DNA of 64,000 bases from a virus (IMGVR_UViG_3300031994_000015:30276-94275); one strand, 5' to 3'; positions 5,415-59,404 are shown, counted from the first letter of the stretch. Notes: generated by a model from the sequence alone, not told the origin. Made by a program: numbers and translations.

Positions 5415-5805
5415 GGGGTCATTTTGGTATTTGATTGGTAAGTTGAATATTGAAATCATGCAGGAGCGTTGAATCCTTAAATTTGACAAAACAATAAATG
5501 CTAATGATGAATTAGTTGACGAAGCTTGGCTTGACAGCTGGGAGTATCGTATGGCTGCTTAATCCCTCAGGGATACCATTTTACAGAGTTAGGTTATAAA
5601 TAAGCATAGCCGGCGCAGTGGGAACCTACGGGTCGGGCAACAGAAGTCCCACACAAGAGTTTTCTACATGAATCTTTAACTTAATAAAGAACAATGAACC
5701 TCCTTTCTGTGGTTGTCGAACCCAAATAATCGACTAAGCATGTTAATTAAAAGTTTCAATAGGATAGTTATTAAGACGTCGGTTCGAATCCGACTGGCTC
5801 CACGA
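5415..5805 (+). ncRNA. ssrA: tmRNA
   Basis: 5' GGGGTCA pairs with 3' TGGCTCC (G3:U70 Ala identity), T-arm GTCGG-TTCGAAT-CCGAC, discriminator A5802, internal tag frame 5500-5562 (ATAAAT|GCT resume context) ending MAA-TAA. Confidence 0.93.
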
Positions 5806-6118: not shown

Positions 6119-7057
6119 ATGAATTGTGCAATAATAGCATGTCTTAAGAGAGAAGAATTATATGTCAGAGAATGGTTAGATTGGCATATAAGTATAGGTG
6201 TAGATCATTTTTATCTATGTGACAATAATGATAAAGATTATGAACCTAAATTACAAGATATTATTAAAGATTATATAGATCAAGGAATAGTTGAAGTATT
6301 TGATTATTCTGGAGTACATCCTATTCAACCAATTTGTTATACTGATATTTATGATAAATATGGTGATTTATATGATTGGTGGATGATAATTGATATAGAT
6401 GAATTTTTAACTATACCAATTACGAATAATGATTTGAAGGATTTTTTGAGTTTACCATACATAGAAGATAAATATAATATTGCTTTAATGTGGAGAAACT
6501 ATGGTGATAATGATTTGTTAGAATATGATGGTAGAGGATGTTTAGAAAGATTTACTAAACCAGCAACTTCATTTAAAGGTGGTAAATATCGAGTTATAAA
6601 TGGTGTATCTAATATAACTAAATCATTATTTAGAAATAAACAAACTATTTACGATAAATTTAAAGTAATACCAAGAATATATTCACAACATAATGTTTTT
6701 AACAATAAAAAAGAAATTCATATTCCAAGATTTGATGTAATTAATCAATCTATAGGGCAATCTTCTGATGTTTTCCATAAAATTAGAATAATGAAAGATT
6801 GTTATAAATTAAATGGATTTTGGAAAAAATATTCTAATCAAATTTATAATGTATGTTATTTGAAACATTTTATAACAAAAACTTTACAAGAATATATAGG
6901 AAAAATAGATAGAGGTTATACATTAAAAATTGAAAGTCATGAAAAATTTCCTTATGATTTGGGAAAATTTTTTAGTATATCACAAGAAACAGATGAAAAA
7001 GATAAATATCTTTTTGAACATTATAATATAAAAAGAGGAAAATATATAGATAAATGA
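6119..7057 (+). CDS. glycosyltransferase (GT92/GT2-like)
   Basis: CAIIACLKREELYVREWLDWH..GVDHFYLCDNN, IIDIDEF (DxD) motif. Confidence 0.8.
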   Translation: MNCAIIACLKREELYVREWLDWHISIGVDHFYLCDNNDKDYEPKLQDIIKDYIDQGIVEVFDYSGVHPIQPICYTDIYDKYGDLYDWWMIIDIDEFLTIPITNNDLKDFLSLPYIEDKYNIALMWRNYGDNDLLEYDGRGCLERFTKPATSFKGGKYRVINGVSNITKSLFRNKQTIYDKFKVIPRIYSQHNVFNNKKEIHIPRFDVINQSIGQSSDVFHKIRIMKDCYKLNGFWKKYSNQIYNVCYLKHFITKTLQEYIGKIDRGYTLKIESHEKFPYDLGKFFSISQETDEKDKYLFEHYNIKRGKYIDK

Positions 7058-8007
7058 AATGTGCCATAATAGCATGTCTTAAGAGAGAAGAATTATATGT
7101 CAGAGAATGGTTAGATTGGCATATAAGTATAGGTGTAGATCATTTTTATCTATGTGATAATAATGATAAAGATTATGAACCTAAATTAAAAGATGTTGTA
7201 AAGGATTATATAGAACGAGGAATAGTTGAAGTATTTGATTATTCTGGAGTACATCCTATTCAACCAATTTGCTATACTGATATTTATGACAAATATGGTG
7301 ATTTATATGATTGGTGGATGGTAATTGATATAGATGAATTTTTAACTATACCAATTACTAATAATGATTTGAAGGGTTTTTTAAGTTTACCATATATAGA
7401 AGATAAATATAATATTGCTTTAATGTGGAGAAACTATGGTGATAATGATTTGTTAGAATATGATGGTAGAGGATGTTTAGAAAGATTTACCAAACTGGCG
7501 ACATCATTTAAAGATGACCAATATAGAATTATAAATGGAGTTTCTAATGTAACTAAATCATTATTTAGAAATAAAAAAACTATTTATAATAAATTCGGAA
7601 TAATACCAAGAATATATTATCAACATAATGTATTTGATAACAAAAGAGATAATCCTAAAGATCCTATTAATTTTATACCTCGACATGATGTACATGGATT
7701 TCCTGTAGGTAAAAAAACTAAAGTATTTAATTCTAATATAATGATATATAATGATAAATTAACAGGATTTTGGAAATATTATTCTAATAGAATTTATAAT
7801 CAATGTTATTTGAAACATTTTATAACAAAAACTTTACAAGAATATATGTGGAAAATAGATAGAGGTGATACATTAATAATTAAAGATAATTCAAAATATC
7901 CATATAATTTTGGACATTTCTTTGCCATATCACAAGAAACGGATGAAAAGGATAAATATCTATATGAACATTATAGAATAAAAAGAGGAAAATATAAAAA
8001 CAAATAA
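7054..8007 (+). CDS. glycosyltransferase (GT92/GT2-like), tandem paralog
   Basis: near-identical N-terminal half to 6119..7057, VIDIDEF. Confidence 0.8.
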   Translation: MKCAIIACLKREELYVREWLDWHISIGVDHFYLCDNNDKDYEPKLKDVVKDYIERGIVEVFDYSGVHPIQPICYTDIYDKYGDLYDWWMVIDIDEFLTIPITNNDLKGFLSLPYIEDKYNIALMWRNYGDNDLLEYDGRGCLERFTKLATSFKDDQYRIINGVSNVTKSLFRNKKTIYNKFGIIPRIYYQHNVFDNKRDNPKDPINFIPRHDVHGFPVGKKTKVFNSNIMIYNDKLTGFWKYYSNRIYNQCYLKHFITKTLQEYMWKIDRGDTLIIKDNSKYPYNFGHFFAISQETDEKDKYLYEHYRIKRGKYKNK

Positions 8008-8358: not shown

Positions 8359-8619
8359 ATGATGTTAAAAATATCTGAAGGTTCAAAGAAAAGATGCCGC
8401 TCTCAGTTCCCAATAAAAAGAATTGGCAAGATTATTAATAGCGCAGTTCTTCTCTTAGATTTGACTCCAGTAGAAATTGTTATTTCAGAATGTATTTATG
8501 ATTCAGATAATCCAAATCTTTATAATGTACTTCTTTATTTGATTAGAGAAAACTGTAAAGACGAAAATATAATTAACGAACTTAAATCATTTAATTATAT
8601 TTATAAAGATGAAGATTAA
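8359..8619 (+). CDS. hypothetical protein
   Basis: ORF track, ATG start chosen. Confidence 0.65.
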   Translation: MMLKISEGSKKRCRSQFPIKRIGKIINSAVLLLDLTPVEIVISECIYDSDNPNLYNVLLYLIRENCKDENIINELKSFNYIYKDED

Positions 8620-8998
8620 ATATTTAGAATCTAATAATAAATACTATATTCAAGCATTCAACGAAGATGATATGTGGTTAAGCACAGTCATTATTGATAT
8701 TGAATGTGATGAATTTCCAAGGTATAAAGAATATTGTAATGGAAATAAATTAGCTAAGATTATAAGAGTTGAAACTAACCCAAATTATGTAGGTAAAGGA
8801 TATGCATCTAAACTTATAAAGTTGGCCCTTAATAAATTCAAAACTTACAATATAGTTTTATTATGTAGTCCTTGTAAAAGATGGGAAGATACTGATACTT
8901 TAAAAACTGCCAAAGATTTACAAATATTCTATTCAAAATTTGGTTTTGTAAGAACCAATGAACTTTTACCTACAATGATTTATAAAGCAAATATTTAA
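8609..8998 (+). CDS. GNAT family N-acetyltransferase
   Basis: VETNPNYVGKGYASKLI acetyl-CoA motif A; FYSKFGF motif. Confidence 0.8.
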   Translation: MKIKYLESNNKYYIQAFNEDDMWLSTVIIDIECDEFPRYKEYCNGNKLAKIIRVETNPNYVGKGYASKLIKLALNKFKTYNIVLLCSPCKRWEDTDTLKTAKDLQIFYSKFGFVRTNELLPTMIYKANI

Positions 8999-9295: not shown

Positions 9296-9323
9296 TTGAA
9301 TTTTTTAAAATAGTTTCTATATT
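9296..9323 (+). promoter_or_regulatory. TTGAA-N16-CTATATT promoter motif
   Basis: exact copy. Confidence 0.75.
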
Positions 9324-9345: not shown

Positions 9346-9717
9346 ATGAATAAATCAAATTTTTCAAACAAACAAATTAAAAAGTTTTTTAGCACCTTTG
9401 GAGCAGAGTTTACAACTAGGATAAATAAGGCTGGTAATCTAGTTGTAGTAAATGTTGTTAATCCTAAAGGTGCTGGTGAGTTTTATGTACTTCATGCTTA
9501 TGAGAATGGAACTTTTCTTTGGAGACGCCATTATACAACATATTGGGGTTCAAAGTCAATGTGTCCATTAAATATGAAGAATCGCAATCAAACAACACCT
9601 CATAAGTGTTGGAGATATTGGGATTATGAGAAGCATTGTTTCTTTAATTCTTTTGAGGAAGCTATGGATTATATCAAGATGTATTTCAAGAAGTATAGAA
9701 ACATTAAATTAAATTAA
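9346..9717 (+). CDS. hypothetical protein
   Basis: ORF after promoter motif. Confidence 0.75.
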   Translation: MNKSNFSNKQIKKFFSTFGAEFTTRINKAGNLVVVNVVNPKGAGEFYVLHAYENGTFLWRRHYTTYWGSKSMCPLNMKNRNQTTPHKCWRYWDYEKHCFFNSFEEAMDYIKMYFKKYRNIKLN

Positions 9718-9719
9718 TT

Positions 9720-9935
9720 ATGTGGTTTGTAAATTGTTTAATTTATTGGTTAATTGGGTTTTTAACTATTTATTTAATGGCTGATAAATCCGAATCAACA
9801 GAAAATTCTGCATGGGTTGTAATATATGCATTTGGTTCATTTTTTTGGCCTATTGTAATAAGTGTATATATTTTTACATATTTGTCTAATAAAATAAATA
9901 AAATATATTATGGAAGAACTAATTATTGTAGATAG
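9720..9935 (+). CDS. small membrane protein
   Basis: two hydrophobic segments, FWPI motif. Confidence 0.7.
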   Translation: MWFVNCLIYWLIGFLTIYLMADKSESTENSAWVVIYAFGSFFWPIVISVYIFTYLSNKINKIYYGRTNYCR

Positions 9936-10521
9936 ACAACATGATTTTTCTAGTCCTACAGGAACTCTTTATGTTCAAGGTAGTGATGAGACAAAAGTAG
10001 CAATTATCAATTATATTAATAAGAATGCTAAAAACATTGTAGCAGCTATTTGTACTGTGGATTGGCATAGTCCTAATCATTGTTCATTCAAAAGAAATGG
10101 TGGGGAATGGCCGGCACATTGTCAACAATTTAGTGTTGGTGCAGGTATTGATACCGATATTTATAATGCACTTATTTTAAACAATATTCCTATTAAGGTA
10201 TTTAAGAAGGGTAATGTTGATTCAACTGAGGAATATGGTGCATTTGAGAATATTCATGTTTCTCATAATTCTAATGAGGAAGGAGATATTGATGTTATTG
10301 TCAATAATGCCGCTTTGAATAATGCCCTTCCTCTTGATTGCTTTACACTTACTGTTTGTGGGACTGCAGGTGATTATTGTGTAAAAGAGACAATTAAAAA
10401 TCTTATCAATTTCAAATGTGTAGAACTCAATGTTCAAGTTATGCTTGATGGAATTGCTTCTATTGACGATGGTACAACTATTCGTAATTTCGTAAAGGAA
10501 AATAATTTGAAGACTGTATGA
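9910..10521 (+). CDS. pncA: nicotinamidase (isochorismatase family)
   Basis: LIIVDRQHDF, DWH, WPAHC, GTAGDYCV catalytic motifs. Confidence 0.88.
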   Translation: MEELIIVDRQHDFSSPTGTLYVQGSDETKVAIINYINKNAKNIVAAICTVDWHSPNHCSFKRNGGEWPAHCQQFSVGAGIDTDIYNALILNNIPIKVFKKGNVDSTEEYGAFENIHVSHNSNEEGDIDVIVNNAALNNALPLDCFTLTVCGTAGDYCVKETIKNLINFKCVELNVQVMLDGIASIDDGTTIRNFVKENNLKTV

Positions 10522-10613
10522 GTACATGCTTTGATTTGACAATTACAATTCCTAATAGTTATCTTGACTATAGAAAAATTGTTTACAAACCAAAAAGAAA
10601 GAAGAAGAAATAA
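10518..10613 (+). CDS. very small basic peptide (31 aa)
   Basis: ATGA overlap with pncA stop; manually translated. Confidence 0.35.
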   Translation: MSTCFDLTITIPNSYLDYRKIVYKPKRKKKK

Positions 10614-10614
10614 A

Positions 10615-10637
10615 ACTACGTTTCAATGTAACGTAGT
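10615..10637 (+). terminator. hairpin ACTACGTT/AACGTAGT
   Basis: 8-bp stem, no strong T tract. Confidence 0.4.
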
Positions 10638-10746
10638 GTAATTGAAATAAAGTATAACATGTGATATATTATATACAAAAAGTTAACTTAATGTATCATA
10701 TAATAAACATTAAACAATTTAGTAACTAATAAAAAAATTTAACAAT

Positions 10747-11943
10747 ATGATTTATTCAATTCTTGACACCGATCTTTATAAGTTTACTACTAGTTATGCT
10801 TACATGAAGTTGTTTCCAAACGCTGAGTGTACTTTCACTTTTAAGGATCGAAATAAGGTAAAACGTACTCCTGAGTTCTTGAAGAAGTTCAAGGAACAGC
10901 TTAAGAAGTATGAGTTGGTTCATCTTACAATGGAGGAGTTCAATTGGCTTATAAGCAATAAGTCTATTGATTTTATGCCTATTCACTATTGGGAGTGGCT
11001 TATGTCTTTCCGATTTGATATGAGCAAGATGAAGATCTATCTTGATGAGGAAGGTGTACTTTGTGTAGATGTTACCGATAAGTGCTATAAGGCTTCTCTT
11101 TATGAAATTCCTGTCTTGTTCTCTATTCCTGAAGTAAACAATGCTGGAAAGCCTATTAATTGGGAGCGTACAATGGATAAGCTTGCTGTAAAAGTTGCAA
11201 TTGCAAATAAGGAAGGAATGCTTTTCTCAGAATTTGGAACTCGTCGTCGTTTCAGTTATGAGGTTCAGGACCGAGTAATTGCATATCTTAAGGAGCATGC
11301 AAAGACATGCGTAGGTACTTCAAACATGCATTTCGCAATGAAGTACGATATGAAGCCAATTGGTACTCACCCTCATGAGTGGTTTATGTTCCACGGTGCT
11401 CAGTATGGTTACAAGGCAGCCAATTATATGGCTCTTGAAAATTGGGTGAATGTATATGATGGAGACCTTGGTATTGCTCTTTCTGACACTTACACATCTG
11501 ATGTTTTCTTCCGTAGTTTCTCTTTGAAGCAGGCTAAGTTGTTTGATGGTGTTCGTCAGGATTCTGGAGATGAATATGAATTTACCGATAAGACAATTAA
11601 TTTCTATAAATCAAAAGGAATTGATTATCATAACAAGACAATTGTATTCTCTAATGCATTGGACTTCCCTAAGGCTATTAAGATTTTGAAATATTGTCGA
11701 GAGAAGGGAATTAAGGCAAGTTTCGGTATTGGAACAAATCTTACTTGTGATGTATATGCTCCTGATGGAACTAAGTATGATGCAGAGAATATTGTAATGA
11801 AGATGTCTCGTTGCCGAATGACACCTACCCAGCCTTGGTATGTAACTATTAAGATTAGTGATGACCTCGGTAAGCATATGGGAGATAATAAGGAGTTCGA
11901 GCATGCTTGTTATGAGCTTGAAATCGTAATACCAATAGTATAA
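10747..11943 (+). CDS. pncB: nicotinate phosphoribosyltransferase
   Basis: SILDTDLYKFT, SEFGTRRRFS, GTSN, GTHPHEW, GIALSDT, GVRQDSGD, FGIGTNL. Confidence 0.95.
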   Translation: MIYSILDTDLYKFTTSYAYMKLFPNAECTFTFKDRNKVKRTPEFLKKFKEQLKKYELVHLTMEEFNWLISNKSIDFMPIHYWEWLMSFRFDMSKMKIYLDEEGVLCVDVTDKCYKASLYEIPVLFSIPEVNNAGKPINWERTMDKLAVKVAIANKEGMLFSEFGTRRRFSYEVQDRVIAYLKEHAKTCVGTSNMHFAMKYDMKPIGTHPHEWFMFHGAQYGYKAANYMALENWVNVYDGDLGIALSDTYTSDVFFRSFSLKQAKLFDGVRQDSGDEYEFTDKTINFYKSKGIDYHNKTIVFSNALDFPKAIKILKYCREKGIKASFGIGTNLTCDVYAPDGTKYDAENIVMKMSRCRMTPTQPWYVTIKISDDLGKHMGDNKEFEHACYELEIVIPIV

Positions 11944-11957
11944 GAAATAAATATATA

Positions 11958-12001
11958 AAGCCAACATGTGATATAAATCAAGTCTACTTACATGTTGGCT
12001 T
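11958..12001. repeat. 12-bp perfect inverted repeat AAGCCAACATGT / ACATGTTGGCTT after pncB
   Basis: read directly; 20-nt loop. Confidence 0.8.
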
Positions 12002-12174
12002 CTTTTACTACTAACCATATTAAATTTATAAGTATTATGATAATTAATTGTCCAAAATGTCACAAAGAAACAGAATTTCTAATTGGTGATGCTATTGATG
12101 AACTTGGAGAAGTTTTTAAATGTCAACATTGTGGTTGGCCTTTTAGATATGTAAAAGAAAATGAAGTACGCTAG
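11992..12174 (+). CDS. small zinc-ribbon protein
   Basis: CPKC...CQHC; true start probably an internal ATG. Confidence 0.65.
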   Translation: MLASFTTNHIKFISIMIINCPKCHKETEFLIGDAIDELGEVFKCQHCGWPFRYVKENEVR

Positions 12175-12466
12175 TTATTCAAATAATCCTATTATATTAA
12201 AATCAAAATATTTTAGAATTGATTCATGGCAAGTAGATCCTCGAACAAAAAAACCTTTAAAGACTAAAGCAGAATTGTTCAAGGATCTGCTTCCTGGTGA
12301 TTTTTTACTTTTTTCTACTAAACTTGAATCTCTTGGTGGTTCATATACTTGCAATTTTAAAGTTGAAGCTTTTAGAAATGGAGAAAAAATAGGAGAAACT
12401 ACAAAATCTCAAAATTCAATATCCAATTTAATAGGTTCATATTTTGAATTATCAGAATGTTTATAA
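12161..12466 (+). CDS. hypothetical protein (paralog of 12531..12845)
   Basis: shared LPGD/LPND, RNGE/RNDE, FELxE pattern. Confidence 0.7.
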   Translation: MKYASYSNNPIILKSKYFRIDSWQVDPRTKKPLKTKAELFKDLLPGDFLLFSTKLESLGGSYTCNFKVEAFRNGEKIGETTKSQNSISNLIGSYFELSECL

Positions 12467-12479
12467 TTTCATATAATAT

Positions 12480-12507
12480 TTGAATTTTTTATATTTGTTT
12501 CTATATT
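12480..12507 (+). promoter_or_regulatory. TTGAA-N16-CTATATT promoter motif
   Basis: exact copy. Confidence 0.75.
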
Positions 12508-12530
12508 ATATATGTAAAATATAAATTAAT

Positions 12531-12845
12531 ATGGCAAGTTTAGACGGAAAAAATCATCACATTGAGTTGAAATCAAAAGTTTTAAAAGTAACTGGGTTTG
12601 TAATAAAAGAAAATGGCAAGCCATTTAAAATTACATCAAATAATAATTGGAAAAATGTTCTTCCAAATGATGTAATAGTTTTAAGTTTTATTTTTGAAAC
12701 AGGATTTTTGGGATATTCAAATTTTTATAAGCCTAAAATGGATGTAACTGTGTATCGTAATGATGAAGTTCTTTTTACAGAAAATACATATTTGACATCT
12801 ATATCATCGATGATTAGTCATTTTGAATTAGAAGAAATTAATTAA
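12531..12845 (+). CDS. hypothetical protein (paralog of 12161..12466)
   Basis: ORF after promoter motif. Confidence 0.7.
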   Translation: MASLDGKNHHIELKSKVLKVTGFVIKENGKPFKITSNNNWKNVLPNDVIVLSFIFETGFLGYSNFYKPKMDVTVYRNDEVLFTENTYLTSISSMISHFELEEIN

Positions 12846-12860
12846 TAAAAAGAATAAAAT

Positions 12861-13838
12861 ATGGATTACGCAAAAGTTTTTGAGACAATGGTTAGTGAGA
12901 CACAGAAGTATCTTGAGAATAATAACCTTTTCGCTATGATTCTTGGTATTTCTGGTGGTTTGGATTCTACTGTAACTGCGGCAATTTGTCATGAGGTTGA
13001 GAAACGAAATCCTGAGTTGAAGTTCTATGGTGTATCTCTTCCTTGCTCATCTAATACAATTGATGAGAATAATTCTGCAAATGCTTGTATGAAGGCATTT
13101 TGTAAGAAAGATCAGTATTGGACTGAGAATCTTCAGAAGGAGTATCTACTTATGAAAGCTACTTGTTCACAGCGCCATTCACCAACGACAATTGGGCAGG
13201 GAAATATCAAAGCTCGTCTTCGTATGATTTATCTTTATGACCTTGCAAATTATACTAAAGGTCTTGTTATGGACACTGATAATCTTACTGAGCATTATCT
13301 TGGATTCTTCACCATTCATGGGGATGTTGCTGATTTTAATCCAATTGGTGGACTTTGGAAACATGAAGTATATGAGCTTGCAAAATACATTCGTGATAAG
13401 TATGAGAATGATATGAAGCATTATCCTATGAGTCCTGATTCATTTGACATTATCGATGATATCAATGCTATAGACGATTTCAAGAACAAAATTGCCGCTC
13501 TTGATGCCGCACTTGGTATTCGTCCTACTGATGGAAATGGTGTAAATGACCTCGGTGATATGGGTCAGATTGCTCCAGCATTTGCACATGATAAGAATGT
13601 AGATGCTTATACTAAGGTTGATGACATCATTAAGACATATCTTTATGCAATCACTCAGTTCCCTGATGAGCGTGATAAGATGATTCAGGCACTTCGTGAT
13701 AAGTATGATGTAGATAATGACCAGGTAACTTATAAGACTGTTGATGGTGTTATCAATCGAATTAAGTGGACTGAATACAAGCGTAAAGGACTTCCTGTAG
13801 TTATTCCGAACGAGAAATATATTACCAAATTTGTTTAA
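12861..13838 (+). CDS. nadE: NH3-dependent NAD+ synthetase
   Basis: LGISGGLDST P-loop, GNIKARLRM, TDNLTE..LGFFTIHGD, PIGGLWKHEVY; no glutaminase domain. Confidence 0.92.
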   Translation: MDYAKVFETMVSETQKYLENNNLFAMILGISGGLDSTVTAAICHEVEKRNPELKFYGVSLPCSSNTIDENNSANACMKAFCKKDQYWTENLQKEYLLMKATCSQRHSPTTIGQGNIKARLRMIYLYDLANYTKGLVMDTDNLTEHYLGFFTIHGDVADFNPIGGLWKHEVYELAKYIRDKYENDMKHYPMSPDSFDIIDDINAIDDFKNKIAALDAALGIRPTDGNGVNDLGDMGQIAPAFAHDKNVDAYTKVDDIIKTYLYAITQFPDERDKMIQALRDKYDVDNDQVTYKTVDGVINRIKWTEYKRKGLPVVIPNEKYITKFV

Positions 13839-15453: not shown

Positions 15454-16527
15454 ATGTATAATAAATATTTTCTTAAAGATTTATTGATGACTCATACTCC
15501 TTCCGGATATGAGAATTTATTTTTGCAAAAACCAACAGAAACTTTATTTGAATATATTCATAATGATTTTGGGATTGATGCTTTGAAAAATGTTATCTTC
15601 CACAAAGGATCAAAAGCAGAAAATGCTACACCATTTATGATATCAGCTCATTATGATGAAATAGCTTTACAAGTTTCGGCAATTACAAAAAGTGGATTAC
15701 TTAAGGTTATTAATCTTGGTGGATTAGACTTAAAAACAATTGAAGGTTCATATGTTGAAGTAATTATCGATGAGATGGATGAATGGGGAAATCCAAAGAC
15801 AATTAAAGGTATTATTGGTAAAAAACCTATTCATAAAGAATCAAAAGAAGATCGTGAAAAAACCGATCCTTATGAGAAAATTATTATCGATGTAGGTTGT
15901 AATTCAAGACAAGAAGTATCTGATTTAGGTATACATATTGGTTGTCCTATTGTATTTAAAAAGGAATGTCAATTGGAATTTGGCAAAGATGAAAAGCATA
16001 TTGTTGGTAATGCATTGGATGACAAGATAGGTATTTATGCAGTTTCACAAGCATTTTTAGAGATTGATGAACAACTTCTTATTGATAAGAATATAGCTTT
16101 ATATCTTGTTTGGTGTAGTCAAGAAGAAGTTGGATTACGTGGGGCAAAAACGGTAACACAATCAATAAATCCAGCTATTTCTATTGATGTTGATGTTTGT
16201 TTCGATAATTCTTATTACAAGTCAAAAGATAATGAGAACGAAATCAAAATAGGAAAAGGAGTTGTTATAACTTATGGTCCTCATTGTGATTGGAAATTAG
16301 TTAAGATAATTAGAGATGCTGCTAATAAATATGCATTATCTTACCAAGAAGAAGTAACAAAAGTTGGTGGAAATAATTGTGATGCTATTCAATTACATAC
16401 ATCAAATTGCTCAACCGCCCATTTAGGTATACCATGTAGAAATATGCATACTCAAGTTGAGATGTGCCATTGGGATGATGTTGAATCATGCATAGATTTG
16501 ATAAAAATATTAATTAGTGATAACTAA
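15454..16527 (+). CDS. M42 family metallo-aminopeptidase
   Basis: AHYDEI, ALDDKIG, SQEEVGLRGA, DVD, MHTQVE metal-binding motifs. Confidence 0.88.
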   Translation: MYNKYFLKDLLMTHTPSGYENLFLQKPTETLFEYIHNDFGIDALKNVIFHKGSKAENATPFMISAHYDEIALQVSAITKSGLLKVINLGGLDLKTIEGSYVEVIIDEMDEWGNPKTIKGIIGKKPIHKESKEDREKTDPYEKIIIDVGCNSRQEVSDLGIHIGCPIVFKKECQLEFGKDEKHIVGNALDDKIGIYAVSQAFLEIDEQLLIDKNIALYLVWCSQEEVGLRGAKTVTQSINPAISIDVDVCFDNSYYKSKDNENEIKIGKGVVITYGPHCDWKLVKIIRDAANKYALSYQEEVTKVGGNNCDAIQLHTSNCSTAHLGIPCRNMHTQVEMCHWDDVESCIDLIKILISDN

Positions 16528-17162: not shown

Positions 17163-17696
17163 ATGAAAGAAGATAATTATTTACAATCATCAGAAGGAAA
17201 GATCTACAAAATAATGGACACCCATTTGCTTCAACTTTCTCCTTGGAAAGATGGAGAAAGTCGTCGTATTTATGAGTATGATGATTCTGATATGCATGTA
17301 ATTACATACCAAAATGCATGTATGATTGTAAATAAGCAATTTGCTGAAACCGATGAAGAATGGGAGCATAATGGAAAGAAATATAAAGCAAGAGCATTAA
17401 TAAATAAAAATATTGATGAACATACTGCTATGATTTCTATGTTACCTTCTCATTATATCAAAGAATCTTCAAAAGTATTAAAGACTTTACCAAATGAAAA
17501 TTCTATTACTATATCTGATAACAAAGGTAATGAATTTAAAATGGTAAAACATAAAGGTAAAATATATTATTGTTTAGTAGTTAATCAATATTTACCAAAG
17601 GTACAACTTTATAATACATTCGGTGATTTTTGTCAAATGGTTAATATCAAGAATGTAAAACCAATTTTTAATGAAACTGATAAGAGATTTATGTAA
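17163..17696 (+). CDS. hypothetical protein
   Basis: ORF track. Confidence 0.75.
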   Translation: MKEDNYLQSSEGKIYKIMDTHLLQLSPWKDGESRRIYEYDDSDMHVITYQNACMIVNKQFAETDEEWEHNGKKYKARALINKNIDEHTAMISMLPSHYIKESSKVLKTLPNENSITISDNKGNEFKMVKHKGKIYYCLVVNQYLPKVQLYNTFGDFCQMVNIKNVKPIFNETDKRFM

Positions 17697-18283
17697 TGGA
17701 TAATAATAGTTTTAATATATTTATAAGAAGTATACTTGCCGGTATTTGTATAGGTTTAGGTGGAGCAATATTTATCAAACTAGGTGGAGTTGTAGGTGCA
17801 TGTATGTTTGCATTTGGATTACTTACTGTAGTTCATTTTAAATTACCACTTTATACTGGAACAGCTGGTTTTATTCAACTTAATAAATATGAAGAATATG
17901 AAAAAATGTTATTCATTTTATTAGGAAATATTCTTGGTTGTATTTTATTAAGTTATATGAATATAAAAGGAATTGATGGAACTGCAATTATCCAATCAAG
18001 ATTAGATACATCTTATTCACAATGCTTATTAAATGCAATCGGGTGTGGTTTGATAATGACATTAATTGTAAAAGGTGGCAGAGATAAAAATTTACTATTA
18101 ATTCTTTTTGGAATTCCTTTATTTATTCTTTTAGGATTTTATCATAGTATTGCTGATGCATTTTATATGATGGTTGTTCCTGGAGAATTAAGGACATTAT
18201 TTTTTGGAAGATATTGGACTATTGTTTTAGGTAATTTTATTGGGTGTAATATACCACGATTATTAAATTATGAAAATACATAA
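17696..18283 (+). CDS. formate/nitrite transporter (FNT) family protein
   Basis: SILAGICIGLG, LYTG, GNILG, FYHSIAD, LGNFIG; multiple TM segments. Confidence 0.82.
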   Translation: MDNNSFNIFIRSILAGICIGLGGAIFIKLGGVVGACMFAFGLLTVVHFKLPLYTGTAGFIQLNKYEEYEKMLFILLGNILGCILLSYMNIKGIDGTAIIQSRLDTSYSQCLLNAIGCGLIMTLIVKGGRDKNLLLILFGIPLFILLGFYHSIADAFYMMVVPGELRTLFFGRYWTIVLGNFIGCNIPRLLNYENT

Positions 18284-18551: not shown

Positions 18552-19367
18552 ATGAACGGAATTATTGGAGCTATTGTAGGTAATAGTGTTGGTCAGTCTT
18601 ATGAAATTATTAAGACCCGTGATTACAATTTTAATATGATTTATGATAAGGGTAATGCAGCTGATGATTCAGTAGCTATTCTTGCTGTAGCTGATTGGCT
18701 TATGTCAACAAAGCATACTAAAGATGAGCTTATTGATAAGTTGCATTTCTGGTGTAATAAGTTCAATTATGGAATGTATAATTATGGAAATGCCGTAAAA
18801 TTTAAGGATTGGATACGTAATAAGGAACGTGAGCCATATAATTCTTATGGTAATGGTTCTGCAATGCGCGTTATTCCTGTTGGATTTTATGCTAAAAATA
18901 TTGATGAATGTCTTGAATTAGCTAAGGCATCTGCTGAGATTACACATAATCATCCTGAAGGAATTAAGGGAGCTCAAGCTATTGCAGCTGCTATATTTTT
19001 TATTCGCCAAGGTAAATCAAAGAGAGCTATTAAGAAATATGTTGAAGAGACATTTGGTTATAATTTAACTAAGTCTTATGATGCATTAAAGAGAACACAT
19101 AAATTTGAATGCACATGCCAAAATTCTGTTCCTGCTGCTTTAATTTGTTGGTTAGAATCTAAATCATTTGAAGATGCTATTCGTAAAGCTATTTCTCTTG
19201 GAGGAGATGCTGATACCGAAGGAGCTATTGCTGGAGCATTAGCAGCTGCTGATCCAAAGACACCAGTTGATGATGATTTGGTTCATGATGTAATTAGATT
19301 CTTTAGTATAGATTTTCTTGATTTATTGAATAAGTGGCATAAAAATGTAGAAAAGATTTATGAGTAG
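18552..19367 (+). CDS. ADP-ribosylglycohydrolase (DraG/ARH family)
   Basis: GAIVG, DDS, SYGNGSAMRV, THNHPEG, ISLGGDADT. Confidence 0.9.
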   Translation: MNGIIGAIVGNSVGQSYEIIKTRDYNFNMIYDKGNAADDSVAILAVADWLMSTKHTKDELIDKLHFWCNKFNYGMYNYGNAVKFKDWIRNKEREPYNSYGNGSAMRVIPVGFYAKNIDECLELAKASAEITHNHPEGIKGAQAIAAAIFFIRQGKSKRAIKKYVEETFGYNLTKSYDALKRTHKFECTCQNSVPAALICWLESKSFEDAIRKAISLGGDADTEGAIAGALAAADPKTPVDDDLVHDVIRFFSIDFLDLLNKWHKNVEKIYE

Positions 19368-20040: not shown

Positions 20041-21999
20041 ATGAGCAACAAAGTTTTTGGAATTGACCTGGGAACAGGTTTTAGTGCTTGTGCCATTATT
20101 GAAGGTGGCAAGCCAGAAGTAATCGCTAATGGTGAAGGACATCGTACCACTCCTTCAGTAGTTTTTATTAAAGGCGATGAACGTAAAGTCGGTGATGCGG
20201 CTAAACGTGGTATGGTAATGAATCCTAAGAACACAGTATCATTTGTAAAGCGTTTTATGGGTGCTGATTGGAATGATGCTGATGTACAAAAAATGCTTAC
20301 TATGGTAACTTATGATGTTGTCAATAAGAATGGTAAGCCTTATATTAAGATTGACAACAAAGAATATTCTCCAGAAGAAATTTCCTCTTATATTCTTGCT
20401 GAAATGGCTAAAGTAGCTTCTGACTATTATGGTGAGGAAGTTAAGAAGGTTGTTATTACAGTTCCTGCATGGTTTAATGATGTTCAACGTAAAGCTACTA
20501 AGTTAGCTGGTGAACTTGCTGGTCTTGAAGTACTTCGTATTATAAATGAACCTACAGCCGCAATTCTTTCATCTGATATTGATACAACTAAAGGTGATAG
20601 AACAGTTATGGTAGCTGACTATGGTTGTGGTACTTTGGACTTCTCTATTTGTGAATGTTCAGATGGTATGATTGAGGTATTAGCATCTGATGGTGATGTA
20701 TTCCTTGGTGGTCAAAACTATGATAATAGAATTGTAGATTGGATGGCTGAGGAGTTTATGAAGGATCACCCAACTATTGACCTTCGTAAAGATCAAATGG
20801 CTTATGCTCGTTTGGTAGAAGCAGCTGAAAAAGCAAAATGTGAACTTTCTACTTCTATGCAAACTGAAATTAACCTTCCATATATTACTGTATTGGATGG
20901 TGCTCCACAAATGCTTATACTTACACTTACACGTGCTAAGTTTGAGTCATTAGTAGCTGATTTGAATAATAAAGTAGTTGAAATTGCTAAGCGTGCTCTT
21001 AATAAAGCTGGAAAGACTGCTTCAGAAATTAATGATATTCTTCTTGTAGGTGGTTCTTGTCGTATTCCATCTGTTCAAGATGCACTTAAAAATAACTTTG
21101 GTGATAAGCTTAACAAGACTGCTAATTTCGATGAAGCCGTTGCACTTGGTGCAGCTAAGCAAGCTAAAGCTATTGTAAACCCAGAAGATACTGATACATT
21201 ACTTCTTGATGTTACACCTATTACATTAGGTATTGAGGTTAATGGTAATATGATGGGTAAGCTTATTGAAGCTAATACTACAATTCCTTGTAAGAAATCA
21301 CAAGTATTTACTACTGCTGAGGATAATCAACCTGCTGTATCAATTGTAGTTCTTCAAGGTGAACGTCCAATGAGTAAAGATAATAAGCAAATTGGTATGT
21401 TTAATCTTGATGGTATTGCACCAGCTCGTCGTGGAGTTCCTCAAATCGAAGTAACATTTGATATTGATGCTAATGGTACACTTACCGTATCAGCTAAGGA
21501 CCTTGGTACTCAAAAAGAACAACATATTACTATTGATAATTCTAATTCTCTTTCACAAGAAGAAATTGATCGAATCAAGAAGGAAGCTGAAGAGCATAAG
21601 GAAGAGGATAATAAGAAGAAGGCAGAAATGGATAAGTTGAATGCCGCTGAAGGATATATCTATAATGTTGAGAAATCACTTAATGATGAGAATCTTAAAG
21701 ATAAGTTTACAGATGATGAACGTAAGCATCTTGAAGATTTAGTAGCTAAAGGTAAAGAAGCTATTGATAGTAAGAATAATGATAGTGTCTATGCTGCTAA
21801 GGATGAACTTCAAAAGGTATATGATCCAATCATTACTAAGATTTATCAAGCTAATGCACCTAAAGATGCAAATGGTAATCCAAAAGTAGATCCTAATTTC
21901 ATGAATCAATTTAATGATATGTTTGGTGGTGCAAGTGGATTTGCTGGAGGTCAAAATTTTGACCCATCACAATTTGCAACTGCAACCCCTAAGAATTAA
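20041..21999 (+). CDS. dnaK: Hsp70 chaperone DnaK
   Basis: GIDLGT, TTPSVV, TVPAWF, RIINEPTAA, LLLDVTPITLGIE, GVPQIEVTFDIDANG. Confidence 0.97.
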   Translation: MSNKVFGIDLGTGFSACAIIEGGKPEVIANGEGHRTTPSVVFIKGDERKVGDAAKRGMVMNPKNTVSFVKRFMGADWNDADVQKMLTMVTYDVVNKNGKPYIKIDNKEYSPEEISSYILAEMAKVASDYYGEEVKKVVITVPAWFNDVQRKATKLAGELAGLEVLRIINEPTAAILSSDIDTTKGDRTVMVADYGCGTLDFSICECSDGMIEVLASDGDVFLGGQNYDNRIVDWMAEEFMKDHPTIDLRKDQMAYARLVEAAEKAKCELSTSMQTEINLPYITVLDGAPQMLILTLTRAKFESLVADLNNKVVEIAKRALNKAGKTASEINDILLVGGSCRIPSVQDALKNNFGDKLNKTANFDEAVALGAAKQAKAIVNPEDTDTLLLDVTPITLGIEVNGNMMGKLIEANTTIPCKKSQVFTTAEDNQPAVSIVVLQGERPMSKDNKQIGMFNLDGIAPARRGVPQIEVTFDIDANGTLTVSAKDLGTQKEQHITIDNSNSLSQEEIDRIKKEAEEHKEEDNKKKAEMDKLNAAEGYIYNVEKSLNDENLKDKFTDDERKHLEDLVAKGKEAIDSKNNDSVYAAKDELQKVYDPIITKIYQANAPKDANGNPKVDPNFMNQFNDMFGGASGFAGGQNFDPSQFATATPKN

Positions 22000-22562: not shown

Positions 22563-22793
22563 ATGACAAAACAAGATATTAAAGAAGAATTATTATCTAT
22601 TATAGATCAACAAAAAGCATATATAAATCATAACAATAATGCTGCTCAAAAACTTGTTGGTAGAATGGATTCTGTGAATATGAGAGTTCTTTATGCATCA
22701 GCTAATGATATGCTTAGTAATTTAAATAAAAGACTTGAAGATGTAATTAAACAAATAGATAATGATGAAATTGAAATAAATCAATATAGATGA
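22563..22793 (+). CDS. hypothetical helical protein
   Basis: ATG 22563 downstream of terminator. Confidence 0.65.
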   Translation: MTKQDIKEELLSIIDQQKAYINHNNNAAQKLVGRMDSVNMRVLYASANDMLSNLNKRLEDVIKQIDNDEIEINQYR

Positions 22794-23887
22794 TGAATAA
22801 AGATTTATACGAAATATTAGGAGTTAGTCGAAATGCAACTGAAGACGAAATAAAGAAAGCATTTAGAAAACTCTCACTTCAATATCATCCAGATAGACAA
22901 GGTGGAAAATCAGAAGCAGAAAAAAAAGCAGCCGAAGAGAAATTCAAAGAAATTGGAGCGGCTTATGCTATTTTGTCTGACCCAGATAAGAAAGCTAAAT
23001 ATGATAGATTTGGTACTGTTGATGATAATATGATGAATGGTACTGGATTTAATTTTGATGATATATTTGGACACATGGAAGATATATTTGGTGGAATGTT
23101 TGGTAGTTCGAGAAGAACTTACAAAAAACAAACTCCACAAAATCACCCAGGTATGTCTGTCAAAATGCAAGTTGGAGTTTCTATTAAAGATATATTAAAT
23201 GGAAAAATTGACAAAGAAGTCAAATATGATTGTAAAGTAAGATGTCATACTTGTAATGGTGTTGGTGGAGATGGAATAAGTGATTGTCCTCATTGTCATG
23301 GAACTGGTATGATTACTGAAACTCAATATGGACCATTTGGTATGATTCAAAATAGCCATCCGTGTCAATATTGTGGAGCTTCTGGTAAAGTTATAAAGAA
23401 TAAATGTAAATCTTGTAATGGTACTGGATTTGAAGTAAAAGAAAAATCAATTCATGTATTTGCCAATTATCCTCGTAATGGACAAGAAATATTATTCAAA
23501 GGTATGGGATATGAGTCAAAGACACCAGGTATGCCTGCCGGAGATTTAATAGTTGTTTTGACATATGATTTTGATAGATCTAAATATATTATCAAACCTG
23601 ATGAAGGTGGATGTATGACAATATATGAAAAGGTTGATGTACCTTATTATGATGCTATTCTTGGTACTTCAAAACTTAAAGGAACTGATTTTAAGCATAA
23701 ATTAGAGAATGGAAAAGAAGTTTCTGTAAATATTCCTAAATATTGTCAAGAAGGTCAGCAAATAGATGTAGGTGGATCATATGGTGGACTTAAATATAAA
23801 TTGGTAGTTCATATCAAGATGCCTACATATATTAGAGATAGCGAAAGAGAATTATTGGAAAAAATAAAGAAAGAGAACTCAAAATAA
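22790..23887 (+). CDS. dnaJ: Hsp40 co-chaperone DnaJ
   Basis: J-domain with HPD, G/F region, four CxxCxGxG-type repeats. Confidence 0.95.
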   Translation: MMNKDLYEILGVSRNATEDEIKKAFRKLSLQYHPDRQGGKSEAEKKAAEEKFKEIGAAYAILSDPDKKAKYDRFGTVDDNMMNGTGFNFDDIFGHMEDIFGGMFGSSRRTYKKQTPQNHPGMSVKMQVGVSIKDILNGKIDKEVKYDCKVRCHTCNGVGGDGISDCPHCHGTGMITETQYGPFGMIQNSHPCQYCGASGKVIKNKCKSCNGTGFEVKEKSIHVFANYPRNGQEILFKGMGYESKTPGMPAGDLIVVLTYDFDRSKYIIKPDEGGCMTIYEKVDVPYYDAILGTSKLKGTDFKHKLENGKEVSVNIPKYCQEGQQIDVGGSYGGLKYKLVVHIKMPTYIRDSERELLEKIKKENSK

Positions 23888-23906: not shown

Positions 23907-25079
23907 TTATTTTTCAACTTTAGTCCAATTATATTTACCTAAATAATAATTATCTGTTCCCATCCAAACATCATAACTAGTAGAACCCACAGGTACTGTT
24001 AATGTACCATTTGGTGCAATATCATAGAATGTGCTCTTATTTATTGTAGGTGCAATTGTTGCATTACATGTTATGTTTGTAAGTCTTGAACAACTAGCAA
24101 ATGCTTCATAGCCAATTGATGTTACCGAATCAGGTATAGTTATGCTTGTAAGTCTTGAACAACTAGCAAATGCTCTACCACCTATCGATGTTACAGAATT
24201 AGGTATAGTTATACTTGTAAGTCCAGTACAACCACCGAATACCCAGGCACCAATTGATGTCACCGAATTAGGTATAGTTATATTTGTAAGTCCAGTACAA
24301 TCACTGAATGCACCATCGCCAATTGATGTTACTGAATCAGGTATAGTTATGCTTGTAAGCCCAGAACATCTAGAGAATGCAGAATCACCAATTGATGTCA
24401 CTGAATTAGGTATAATTGTATTTTTACTACCTAAGTATAATTTATTAGTAGATGTTTCAATTATTGCATTGCAATTATTTCTTGAATCATATTTTTGATT
24501 ATCTGGGTGTACTTTAATATATCCGAATTCTTTGATTTGAAATCCTCCCTCATCATTACTAAATGCTCTACCTATGGTTAAAGAATTAATTGTATATACA
24601 CCTTCAAGGGCACTACTAGCAAAATTTTCAATAGAATTTCCTAAAATTATGGATGTAATATTTTTACAATCTTGAAACATAAATTTACCAACATCAGTAG
24701 GATCAGTTAATGTGTATAAAACTTTATGTTTACCTATTGTATTAAATGTATAATAATCAACGATTTCTTGTTGTTCAATTCCATCTATTTTCATAGAAGT
24801 AAATACCTCTGTATTTTCACCATTACCAGAACCACTAGAACCCATTTTATGATAAAGGTGAGTAGGTTCTTCAGTAGAAGTTACATTATATATACATAAT
24901 ACAACATTACCATCAATAAAATCTTCAACTTCTTCAACTGGTTCTACTTGTGTAGAAGAATTAATACTGTATTGAATATTTTCATCTGATAATATAACAT
25001 AAAGAGAATGTGTTCTTGCTATTTCTTGTATTTCTGAAATAAGAGAACCCCTCTTGTCAAAAAGATATTTTTTTCCCAT
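23907..25079 (-). CDS. BspA-type leucine-rich repeat (LRR_5) protein
   Basis: five 23-aa IPxSVTSIGxxAFxxCxxLTxI repeats; YDSRNNCNAIIET motif. Confidence 0.9.
   Translation of the reverse strand: MGKKYLFDKRGSLISEIQEIARTHSLYVILSDENIQYSINSSTQVEPVEEVEDFIDGNVVLCIYNVTSTEEPTHLYHKMGSSGSGNGENTEVFTSMKIDGIEQQEIVDYYTFNTIGKHKVLYTLTDPTDVGKFMFQDCKNITSIILGNSIENFASSALEGVYTINSLTIGRAFSNDEGGFQIKEFGYIKVHPDNQKYDSRNNCNAIIETSTNKLYLGSKNTIIPNSVTSIGDSAFSRCSGLTSITIPDSVTSIGDGAFSDCTGLTNITIPNSVTSIGAWVFGGCTGLTSITIPNSVTSIGGRAFASCSRLTSITIPDSVTSIGYEAFASCSRLTNITCNATIAPTINKSTFYDIAPNGTLTVPVGSTSYDVWMGTDNYYLGKYNWTKVEK
24073..24417 (-). repeat. about five 69-nt coding repeats (LRR units)
   Basis: repeat visible in DNA and protein; bounds approximate. 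Confidence 0.8.
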
Positions 25080-59017: not shown

Positions 59018-59404
59018 ATGACATTTCTTGAAATATTTGAAGAGTTTAAAAGTCATTCCTATATTAGACGAGCAAGTTGGTCTAAAAATACATTTGTTCA
59101 GTTAAGAAGTACTGCAAATTTAATTCGTCTCGTTTATTTTGAAATGGGTAAAACTCCAGATACTTTGGATAATGATGTACGATTGACGGCTGAAGATTTG
59201 CTTGCTGATGATTGGATTGATATTGATGATTTGATGCCGAAGCCATCAAAAAAGCCTGAAACACTTTGGGAATATATAGATACTCTTAAAGATGGTTCTG
59301 ATGAATGGCGTATAGCAATTGATCTTGGGAGGAAATATTATAAAGAAGGTAAAAACCCAGATGAATATATTGAAGAAATAATTGAGAAAGTAAATAAGAA
59401 ATAA
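59018..59404 (+). CDS. Tad2/DUF2829-like anti-defence sponge protein with C-terminal extension
   Basis: MTF.E.....K....RRASW...F ... DLLADDW pattern in first ~70 aa. Confidence 0.6.
   Translation: MTFLEIFEEFKSHSYIRRASWSKNTFVQLRSTANLIRLVYFEMGKTPDTLDNDVRLTAEDLLADDWIDIDDLMPKPSKKPETLWEYIDTLKDGSDEWRIAIDLGRKYYKEGKNPDEYIEEIIEKVNKK

What the first reader, a model, noticed from the sequence alone, without database searches (positions are those of the whole stretch)
9910..13838. Phage-encoded deamidating (Preiss-Handler) NAD+ rebuilding route: PncA + PncB + NadE
Seen: three intact enzymes within 4 kb, interleaved with small ORFs. Known: SIR2/TIR/Thoeris defences cleave NAD+ to nicotinamide + ADPR. The described phage counter-pathways NARP1 (Adps+Namat) and NARP2 (Nampt+Nmnat) are amidated routes using different enzymes. 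Inference: a third-type NAD reconstitution pathway (Nam to NA to NaMN to NaAD to NAD). The NaMN adenylyltransferase step (NadD/NadM/NadR) is not in this window and may come from the host or elsewhere in the genome. An ARH and a Tad2-like gene in the same window fit an anti-NAD-depletion theme.
Basis: partly seen in the sequence, partly recalled or inferred. Interest (0 to 1): 0.8.

Follow-up and report, generated by a model that had tools for sequence, protein, structure and literature searches.

The report
Phage nicotinamide-to-NAD+ salvage genes
A large sheep-gut phage carries intact genes for every enzyme needed to turn nicotinamide back into the cofactor NAD+, but this gene set was reported in big gut phages in 2024 and its proposed use against NAD-destroying bacterial immunity is still untested.

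Summary
Window 9910-13838 encodes an intact nicotinamidase (PncA), nicotinate phosphoribosyltransferase (PncB) and NH3-type NAD synthetase (NadE), separated by small genes of unknown function.

A NadD-like gene lies 13 kb upstream of pncA, outside the window, near an intact Nudix hydrolase. In 66 of 80 related viral contigs the five genes sit in the order pncA-pncB-nadE-nadD-nudix on one strand, within about 5 kb. In this jumbo lineage that cassette is split in two and loosened by insertions.

The closest cellular PncB proteins are from Bacteroidales (56-59% identity), but those bacterial loci do not show the cassette. The DNA occurs in sheep-gut metagenomes.

The claim of a new third type does not hold. 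Preiss-Handler clusters in jumbo phages, and a counter-defence role for them, were proposed in 2024 (PMC11662467), and the name NARP3 now belongs to PnuC+NadR. No experiment has tested a phage deamidating route.

This scan has already logged the same kind of finding on many other genomes (162 notes). Verdict: a real, complete pathway that is a new member of a known kind. Its defence role is plausible but unshown.

The parts
9296..9323 (+). Two-part promoter-like motif (TTGAATTTTT, 10 bases, TCTATATT) ahead of the o123-o71-pncA gene run
   Evidence: One of 8 exact matches in the window, against 0 expected in 100 shuffles. Sequence context. Promoter function is inferred, not shown.
9346..9935 (+). 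Two small ORFs of unknown function (9346-9717, 123 aa; 9720-9935, 71 aa) directly upstream of pncA, the second overlapping its start
   Evidence: ORF list. No Pfam or PHROG match.
9910..10521 (+). PncA, nicotinamidase (nicotinamide to nicotinate plus NH3)
   Evidence: The best matches among solved structures are nicotinamidases, from E 5e-17. D8, K100 and C157 (catalytic) and D51, H53 and H70 (metal site) are invariant in alignment A2. The AF2 model has pLDDT 88, and its top 26 fold hits are nicotinamidases.
10522..10746 (.). 225-bp spacer between pncA and pncB, with sigma-70-like sites and an inverted repeat at 10615-10637
   Evidence: Promoter and terminator scan: TTGAAA, 17 bases, TATATT with an upstream TG at 10642-10670. 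Sequence. This is a consensus match only.
10747..11943 (+). PncB, nicotinate phosphoribosyltransferase (nicotinate plus PRPP to NaMN)
   Evidence: TIGR01514 scores 370.6 bits against a cut-off of 269.55. PF04095 and PF17767 both match. 2im5 aligns at E 3e-98. The His of the GTHPHEW motif (H210) is invariant in A3.
11992..12174 (+). 60-aa zinc-ribbon ORF
   Evidence: Weak Zn_ribbon matches, all below cut-off. Conserved at 63-74% identity at the same place in L005-L007.
12161..12845 (+). Tandem paralogous small ORFs (12161-12466, 101 aa; 12531-12845, 104 aa) of unknown function, inserted between pncB and nadE
   Evidence: 34% identity to each other, E 9e-09. phrog_5068, function unknown. No named Atlas cluster. 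A contig in DNA run X1 skips 12470-12846, which removes the second copy.
12480..12507 (+). Second copy of the promoter-like motif, ahead of o104 and nadE
   Evidence: nadE starts 15 bases after the o104 stop, so co-transcription is inferred.
12861..13838 (+). NadE, NH3-type NAD synthetase with no glutaminase domain (amidates NaAD to NAD+)
   Evidence: TIGR00552 scores 127 bits against a cut-off of 63.65. The P-loop S31-G32-G33-D35-S36 and the T139/N141/E144, P222/D224/G225 and R300/K307/R308/P312 columns are invariant or nearly so in A1. The AF2 model matches NadE folds over its whole length.
18552..19367 (+). ADP-ribosylglycohydrolase (ARH/DraG-like), a possible associate of the NAD module
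   Evidence: PF03747 scores 128.5 bits. It is found 61-70% identical, 9-11 kb downstream of pncB, in L005-L007. A functional link is not shown.

Best explanation
This is the window's share of a complete, phage-encoded deamidating (Preiss-Handler type) salvage pathway that rebuilds NAD+ from nicotinamide in the infected cell.

Inferred chemistry, following the established roles of each enzyme family:
1. PncA deamidates nicotinamide to nicotinate.
2. PncB joins nicotinate to PRPP to give NaMN. No PRPP synthetase was found in the 158-kb record, so PRPP presumably comes from the host.
3. The NadD-like adenylyltransferase, 13 kb upstream of pncA and outside the window, makes NaAD.
4. NadE amidates NaAD to NAD+ using ammonia.
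5. An intact Nudix hydrolase near nadD may split ADP-ribose to AMP and ribose-5-phosphate, returning the other half of cleaved NAD+ to the PRPP pool.

The ancestral form is a compact pncA-pncB-nadE-nadD-nudix cassette. In this jumbo rumen lineage it is split into nudix...nadD and pncA-pncB...nadE, with small genes inserted.

The most likely benefit is keeping NAD+ available when it is cleaved to nicotinamide and ADP-ribose, whether by NADase-type host defences or by heavy NAD+ turnover during infection.

What is shown: gene integrity, family membership, conserved active-site residues, and conserved gene order. What is inferred: enzyme activities, flux, timing, and any counter-defence effect.
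For: - Family and active-site evidence for PncA, PncB and NadE.
- The NadD-like protein (213 aa) matches TIGR00482 end to end at E 2.7e-18, and PF01467 at 35.8 bits against a cut-off of 21. It has the GSFNPPHKGH motif and a C-terminal HSTKLR motif, and aligns over its full length with S. aureus NadD 2h29.
- The Nudix protein matches PF00293 at 35.8 bits, and its box (G-x5-E-x7-REIYEE) is read directly from the sequence. It is weakly similar to the ADP-ribose pyrophosphatase half of NadM-Nudix enzymes.
- 66 of 80 related viral loci carry all five genes in the same order on one strand, with a median span of 5.0 kb.
- A 98%-complete 376-kb relative shows the same split layout, with NadD about 16 kb upstream of pncB.
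- The same promoter-like motif stands ahead of the nudix...nadD run, the pncA run and the nadE run.
- Weak hint only: contigs from three sheep-gut RNA libraries lie within pncA, pncB and nadE. DNA carry-over is not excluded.
Against: - No activity, metabolite or infection data exist for any phage deamidating route.
- PncA and the NadD-like protein score below the curated NCBIfam cut-offs.
- Neither NaMN versus NMN preference of the adenylyltransferase nor NaAD versus NaMN preference of NadE can be read from sequence.
- No PRPP synthetase was found, though the record is only about 56% complete.
- One close, 97%-complete relative has no detectable NadD, so the full set is dispensable in at least one lineage.
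- The 66 loci include many near-identical contigs from one project. After removing sequences more than 93% alike, only 21 phage PncB sequences remain.
- Bacteroidales hosts have their own PncB, so the phage duplicates at least that host function rather than filling a gap.
Confidence: 0.72

Rival explanations
1. The pathway works as described, but it is general auxiliary metabolism. It raises or maintains NAD+ for the large biosynthetic demand of a jumbo-phage infection, or after host shut-off. It is not a dedicated answer to NADase immunity.
For: The surrounding region is a mixed bag of host-like housekeeping genes: DnaK, DnaJ, an M42 peptidase, an FNT-like transporter, glycosyltransferases and a tmRNA. 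The 2024 paper frames these clusters first as independent NAD+ synthesis. Jumbo phage PA5oct induces the host pncA-pncB1-nadE operon with no defence context reported.
Against: PncA and the Nudix hydrolase act on exactly the two products of NADase cleavage. A Tad2-like gene shares the same promoter-like motif. No phage NAD-dependent ligase was found in the 158-kb record that would explain a special NAD+ demand.
Confidence: 0.35
2. The steps run in the Francisella order. NadE acts as an NMN synthetase that amidates NaMN to NMN, and the adenylyltransferase then converts NMN to NAD+.
For: The NadE model's best target-normalised fold match is the Francisella NMN synthetase 3fiu, TM 0.83. The adenylyltransferase is too diverged to assign NaMN or NMN preference.
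Against: The best sequence matches are ordinary NAD synthetases of Campylobacter and Helicobacter (3p52 at E 3e-24, 1xng), ahead of 3fiu at E 6e-16. Helicobacter NadE scores almost the same by fold, TM 0.79-0.81. The adenylyltransferase matches NadD models rather than NadM models over its full length.
Confidence: 0.12
3. In this jumbo lineage the split cassette is decaying. The genes are leftovers that no longer work together as a pathway.
For: The cassette is broken into two pieces and interrupted by small ORFs. One close relative lacks a detectable NadD, and another carries a NadD-like stretch with two stop codons.
Against: All five ORFs are intact, with invariant catalytic residues. The split layout is conserved in a relative whose PncB is only 80% identical, which argues for selection. 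RNA-library contigs cover the genes, a weak hint.
Confidence: 0.07
4. The 203-aa protein is another isochorismatase-fold amidase, not a nicotinamidase, so the route starts from nicotinate rather than nicotinamide.
For: There is no Pfam match, and the score is below the NCBIfam cut-off.
Against: The metal-site residues D51, H53 and H70 (in a WPxHC motif), together with D8, K100 and C157, are invariant. The best sequence matches among solved structures and the top 26 fold matches are nicotinamidases. The gene lies directly upstream of pncB in 77 of 80 loci.
Confidence: 0.05

Closest known systems
Preiss-Handler gene clusters of 'NAD-jumbo phages' (Microbiome 2024, PMC11662467; e.g. the Kuafu_71 pncB-nadD-nadE cluster)
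   Same: Large gut phages encoding PncB, NadD and NadE, clustered, with Bacteroidota hosts common. A counter-defence role against NAD+ depletion was proposed from annotation only.
   Different: Here PncA and a Nudix hydrolase belong to the conserved unit. The unit is split, with nadD and nudix 13-17 kb upstream, and loosened by small inserted genes. I could not check whether this exact clade is in their data set, because no supplements are held.
NARP2 (Nampt + Nmnat) and the Vibrio phage KVP40 salvage pathway
   Same: A phage-encoded route from nicotinamide to NAD+ that uses a phosphoribosyltransferase of the NAPRTase/NAMPT superfamily and an adenylyltransferase.
   Different: NARP2 is a two-step amidated route through NMN. 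This one is a four-step deamidated route through nicotinate, NaMN and NaAD, needing PncA and NadE. NARP2 and KVP40 have experimental support (citing Lee et al. 2017). This route has none.
NARP1 (Adps + Namat)
   Same: Starts from the products of NADase cleavage.
   Different: NARP1 pyrophosphorylates ADP-ribose and joins it to nicotinamide directly. Here no Prs/Adps-like gene was found, and ADP-ribose could only be reused indirectly, through Nudix and the host PRPP synthetase.
NARP3 (PnuC + NadR; Sci Adv 2026, PMC13464706)
   Same: Phage NAD+ restoration by a classical bacterial salvage branch.
   Different: NARP3 imports nicotinamide riboside and converts it with a bifunctional NadR. No PnuC was found here, and the chemistry differs. 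That paper does not mention PncA, PncB or NadE.
Bacterial pncA-pncB-nadE type operons (e.g. pncA-pncB1-nadE of Pseudomonas aeruginosa, named in PMC7318152)
   Same: The same enzymes in the same order, pncA then pncB then nadE.
   Different: The nearest cellular PncB proteins are from Bacteroidales, and their loci show no pncA, nadE or nadD within 6 kb. The phage NadE is a long NH3-type form closest to Campylobacterota enzymes. The phage cassette therefore looks assembled from parts rather than copied whole from the likely host. This is an inference.

Membership tests
Nicotinamidase / pyrazinamidase (PncA) | Catalytic Asp-Lys-Cys triad of the isochorismatase fold | tested here: met
   D8, K100 and C157 are invariant in 20 phage homologues and align with solved nicotinamidases.
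Nicotinamidase / pyrazinamidase (PncA) | Metal site formed by Asp and two His residues (DxH plus the His of WPxHC). That these residues define the site is from my own knowledge of the solved enzymes. | tested here: met
   D51, H53, W67 and H70 are invariant.
Nicotinamidase / pyrazinamidase (PncA) | Score above curated family cut-offs | tested here: not met
   NF008623 scores 54.7 bits against a cut-off of 174, and there is no Pfam hit. Fold search compensates: the top 26 matches are nicotinamidases.
Nicotinamidase / pyrazinamidase (PncA) | Hydrolysis of nicotinamide to nicotinate | not testable with these tools
   Needs an enzyme assay.
Nicotinate phosphoribosyltransferase (PncB) | Both NAPRTase domains, and a score above the equivalog cut-off | tested here: met
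   PF17767 and PF04095 both match. TIGR01514 scores 370.6 against 269.55. 2im5 aligns over residues 2-385.
Nicotinate phosphoribosyltransferase (PncB) | Conserved His of the HEW motif. That this is the autophosphorylation site in enteric PncB is from my own knowledge. | tested here: met
   H210, E211 and W212 are invariant in 14 sequences.
NH3-dependent NAD synthetase (NadE) | PP-loop SGGxDS ATP-binding motif, and a score above the family cut-off | tested here: met
   S31, G32, G33, D35 and S36 are invariant. TIGR00552 scores 127 against 63.65.
NH3-dependent NAD synthetase (NadE) | Complete NadE fold including the C-terminal substrate-binding helices | tested here: met
   The AF2 model aligns over 316-323 columns with 3fiu, 1xng and 1xnh, TM by target 0.79-0.83. 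The extra length comes from insertions around residues 185-220 and 223-231, where confidence is low.
NH3-dependent NAD synthetase (NadE) | Preference for NaAD over NaMN | not testable with these tools
   Needs kinetics. See the Francisella-type rival explanation.
Nicotinate-nucleotide adenylyltransferase (NadD), gene outside the window | HxGH-type nucleotidyltransferase motif and a C-terminal ISST-like motif | tested here: met
   GSFNPPHKGH lies at residues 8-17 and HSTKLR near residue 180. PF01467 scores 35.8 against 21.
Nicotinate-nucleotide adenylyltransferase (NadD), gene outside the window | Score above the equivalog cut-off | tested here: not met
   TIGR00482 scores 66.7 against 112.45, although it aligns end to end.
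Phage NAD+ reconstitution pathway acting as counter-defence (NARP-type) | Restores NAD+ and phage growth under an NADase defence system | not testable with these tools
   No experiment on a deamidating phage route was found in the literature searched.
Preiss-Handler cluster of NAD-jumbo phages (PMC11662467) | The phage genome encodes PncB, NadD and NadE | tested here: met
   The record is a 158-kb fragment estimated at 56% complete, and close relatives are 254-435 kb.

The most novel reading that the evidence does not exclude
The five-gene unit pncA-pncB-nadE-nadD-nudix, widespread in phages of gut Bacteroidales and split in this jumbo lineage, is a dedicated NAD+ reconstitution counter-defence. 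It would recycle both products of NADase cleavage: nicotinamide through PncA and PncB, and ADP-ribose through the Nudix hydrolase and host PRPP synthetase. That would make it a fourth, experimentally distinct NARP-type system.
Probability: 0.3. Interest if true: 0.55.

Novelty: new member of a known kind. Interest (0 to 1): 0.25.

Why it matters
NAD+ depletion is a common end-point of bacterial anti-phage immunity. Three phage routes that rebuild NAD+ have experimental support, and none of them uses the deamidated branch. If the cassette described here were shown to rescue phages from NADase defences, it would add the classical four-step route to that list. It would also explain why many phages of gut Bacteroidales keep it. 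This window adds detail rather than a new idea: the module includes PncA and a Nudix hydrolase, the nearest cellular pncB loci lack it (so it was probably not copied whole from the likely host), and it can be split and still retained. The same kind of locus has been noted many times in this scan.

Tried and rejected
- Megablast of the 4-kb region against 50,697 phage records found no match. tblastn with PncB found only 13 distant records.
- A PRPP synthetase/Adps-like gene (PF13793), an NAD-dependent ligase (PF01653), PnuC (PF04973) and a second NAPRTase/NAMPT gene were not found in the 158-kb record. The record is incomplete, so this does not show that the phage lacks them.
- The second cytidylyltransferase-like hit, a 665-aa ORF at genome 119176-121173, was considered as the missing adenylyltransferase and set aside. 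Only its first ~170 residues match, and weakly.
- The small ORFs between the enzymes gave no informative match in Pfam, PHROGs or the Atlas.
- The careful PncB tree did not finish, so only the quick tree is available. It shows the window's clade and the gut-phage clade as separate groups near Bacteroidales, but it has no reliable root, so I make no claim about donor or direction.
- The supplements of PMC11662467 are not held, so I could not check whether PncA or this clade is listed there.
- RNA-library contigs were laid on the region. They cannot show strand, ends or level, and may be DNA carry-over. Parts without cover mean nothing.
- Searches for 'NARP4' and for a phage nicotinamidase in NAD+ reconstitution found nothing relevant.

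Full report
**Where the window lies.** The window is bases 30276-94275 of a 158,275-bp viral record, estimated at 56% complete. Its GC content is about 29%. The closest relatives by PncB (74-80% identity) are viral contigs of 254-435 kb. One of them is also filed in a genome collection as a rumen 'Firmicutes' bin. The DNA of the region occurs almost word for word in several sheep-gut metagenomes. This is therefore a fragment of a jumbo phage from the ruminant gut.

**The observation.** The three ORFs are at the stated coordinates and are uninterrupted.
- PncB (10747-11943) is unambiguous. Both NAPRTase domains match, it scores above two curated NCBIfam cut-offs, and it aligns over its full length to the Porphyromonas gingivalis enzyme 2im5 at E 3e-98. 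The His of the GTHPHEW motif is invariant among 14 homologues.
- NadE (12861-13838) scores above the TIGR00552 cut-off, but only residues 1-180 match sequence profiles. An alignment of 24 phage homologues shows that the rest is conserved too: the TDN-x2-E, PTDG and FKRK-x2-P blocks. All phage versions are about 280-340 aa long. The AF2 model (pLDDT 82) superposes on solved NadE chains over its whole length, and the extra residues are insertions. There is no glutaminase domain, so ammonia is the likely nitrogen donor.
- PncA (9910-10521) fails Pfam and the NCBIfam cut-off. Its best matches among solved structures are nicotinamidases. The catalytic D8/K100/C157 and the metal-site D51/H53/H70 are invariant in 20 homologues. 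The top 26 fold matches of its model (pLDDT 88) are all nicotinamidases.

**The missing step.** A search of the whole record for the cytidylyltransferase-like family found two genes.
- The first is at genome 26215-26856, 13 kb upstream of pncA and 3.4 kb before the window starts. It encodes 213 aa and aligns end to end with NadD models and with S. aureus NadD. It has the GSFNPPHKGH and HSTKLR motifs, although its score is below the curated cut-off.
- The second is only the N-terminal part of a 665-aa protein, 77 kb beyond nadE, and it matches weakly. I do not count it as part of the pathway.
- About 2 kb upstream of nadD lies a 233-aa Nudix protein with an intact Nudix box. It is faintly similar to the ADP-ribose pyrophosphatase half of NadM-Nudix enzymes.

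**Relatives.**
- PncB retrieved 80 loci from the viral collection. In 77 a PncA homologue lies directly upstream, and in 75 a NadE homologue lies downstream.
- At ORF level, 66 of the 80 carry pncA-pncB-nadE-nadD-nudix in that order on one strand, with a median span of 5.0 kb and often overlapping stop and start codons.
- Many of these contigs are near-duplicates from one project, so the number of independent lineages is much smaller. About 21 phage PncB sequences remain after removing those more than 93% alike.
- The jumbo clade that contains the window shows a loosened form. Several kilobases are inserted between pncB and nadE, and nadD is moved away.
- A 98%-complete 376-kb relative has NadD (49% identical) about 16 kb upstream of pncB, the same layout as here. 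A 97%-complete relative has no detectable NadD.

**Origin.**
- The nearest cellular PncB proteins are from Bacteroides, Phocaeicola, Parabacteroides and other Bacteroidales, at 56-59% identity.
- Apart from three contigs that look like mis-binned phage DNA, none of those 80 loci has a pncA, nadE or nadD homologue within 6 kb.
- NadE is closest to the small NH3-type enzymes of Campylobacter and Helicobacter.
- I infer that the cassette was assembled in phages rather than copied whole from a host operon. The quick tree has no reliable root, and I make no claim about direction of transfer.

**Expression signals.**
- A two-part AT-rich motif (TTGAATTTTT, 10 bases, TCTATATT) occurs 8 times in the window, against none expected by chance.
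- Three copies lie in this region: ahead of the o123-o71-pncA run, ahead of o104-nadE, and ahead of the genes after nadE.
- Another copy precedes the gene run that leads through nudix to nadD, and one precedes the Tad2-like gene.
- pncB has its own 225-bp upstream spacer, with a looser version of the same two hexamers. These are consensus matches, and function is inferred.
- Contigs from three sheep-gut RNA libraries lie inside pncA, pncB and nadE. This is only a weak hint of transcription, because DNA can be present in such libraries.

**How it most likely works.** From the established roles of the families, the steps run as follows:
- PncA converts nicotinamide to nicotinate.
- PncB converts nicotinate to NaMN, using PRPP.
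- NadD converts NaMN to NaAD.
- NadE converts NaAD to NAD+.
- The Nudix enzyme possibly returns ADP-ribose to the ribose-phosphate pool.

No PRPP synthetase was found in the record, so PRPP is presumably supplied by the host. Nicotinamide and ADP-ribose are exactly what SIR2- and TIR-type defence NADases release, which makes a counter-defence role attractive. The data fit a general NAD+ supply role equally well. The neighbourhood is rich in host-like housekeeping genes, and Bacteroidales hosts already have their own PncB. A variant order, in which NadE amidates NaMN as in Francisella, cannot be excluded.

**Comparison with what is known.**
- NARP1 and NARP2 use other enzymes, and the NARP preprint does not mention this route.
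- NARP3 is PnuC plus NadR.
- The Microbiome 2024 paper on gastrointestinal jumbo phages reports that 174 of 668 genomes have complete NAD+ synthesis by salvage or Preiss-Handler routes. It names a clustered pncB-nadD-nadE set, mentions phage pncA, and proposes a counter to NAD+ depletion, all from annotation.
- I found no paper that tests a phage nicotinamidase or the deamidating route.
- This scan has already logged the same kind of finding on many other genomes, and those follow-ups reached the same conclusion.

**Verdict.** The interpretation as a new type does not hold. This is a new member of a known kind. Three details may be useful: the five-gene ancestral unit includes PncA and Nudix, that unit is split in the jumbo lineage, and it is absent from the nearest bacterial pncB loci.

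Noticed in passing
window 5415-5803 (+): A phage-encoded tmRNA with a 20-residue tag ending in AA (ARAGORN).
   Followed up: no
window 20041-21999 and 22790-23887 (+): Full-length DnaK (Hsp70, 688 bits) and DnaJ (J domain, zinc-finger and C-terminal domains) encoded by the phage.
   Followed up: no
window 17163-18283 (+): A short (195 aa) formate/nitrite-transporter-like membrane protein. The 177-aa gene of unknown function before it is conserved at 70-84% identity in L005-L007, upstream of the ARH gene. Its substrate is unknown. A link to uptake of a small carboxylate such as nicotinate is pure speculation.
   Followed up: partly
window 12470-12846: A contig in sheep-gut DNA run X1 joins 12469 to 12847, with two other letters in between. 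This removes the second of the tandem small paralogues and its promoter-like motif, so a variant without that gene coexists in the sample.
   Followed up: partly
window 919, 9296, 12480, 13853, 38895, 42537, 58961, 60449 (+); L004 2960: A recurrent two-part promoter-like motif (TTGAATTTTT, 10 bases, TCTATATT), with 8 matches against 0 expected. It stands ahead of non-structural gene runs, including the Tad2-like gene.
   Followed up: partly
window 59018-59404 (+): A 128-aa protein whose first 67 residues match the Tad2-like domain (PF11195, 33.4 bits against a cut-off of 25). Its C-terminal half is unexplained.
   Followed up: partly
window 6119-8007, 8609-8998, 15454-16527, 23907-25079 (-), 25183-25908: Two tandem paralogous family-2/92-like glycosyltransferases, a small GNAT acetyltransferase, an M42 aminopeptidase, a BspA-type leucine-rich-repeat protein and a SprT-like protein.
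   Followed up: no
L089, L100, L104, L012, L013: Likely filing errors in public collections. L089 is a 410-kb contig labelled as an uncultured Firmicutes rumen bin, but it is the same record as viral contig L008. L100 and L104, labelled Tenericutes and Firmicutes bins, carry nadD-pncB-nadE and group with the jumbo-phage clade. Of the short 'viral' contigs L012 and L013, which hold pncB alone, L012 groups inside Bacteroides in the quick tree.
   Followed up: partly
genome 119176-121173 (L003 177-2174), outside the window: A 665-aa protein with a weak NadM-like nucleotidyltransferase domain at its N-terminus. It is followed by a Pol-beta-fold nucleotidyltransferase. The two ORFs just before it start with a T4-like capsid-targeting leader.
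   Followed up: no
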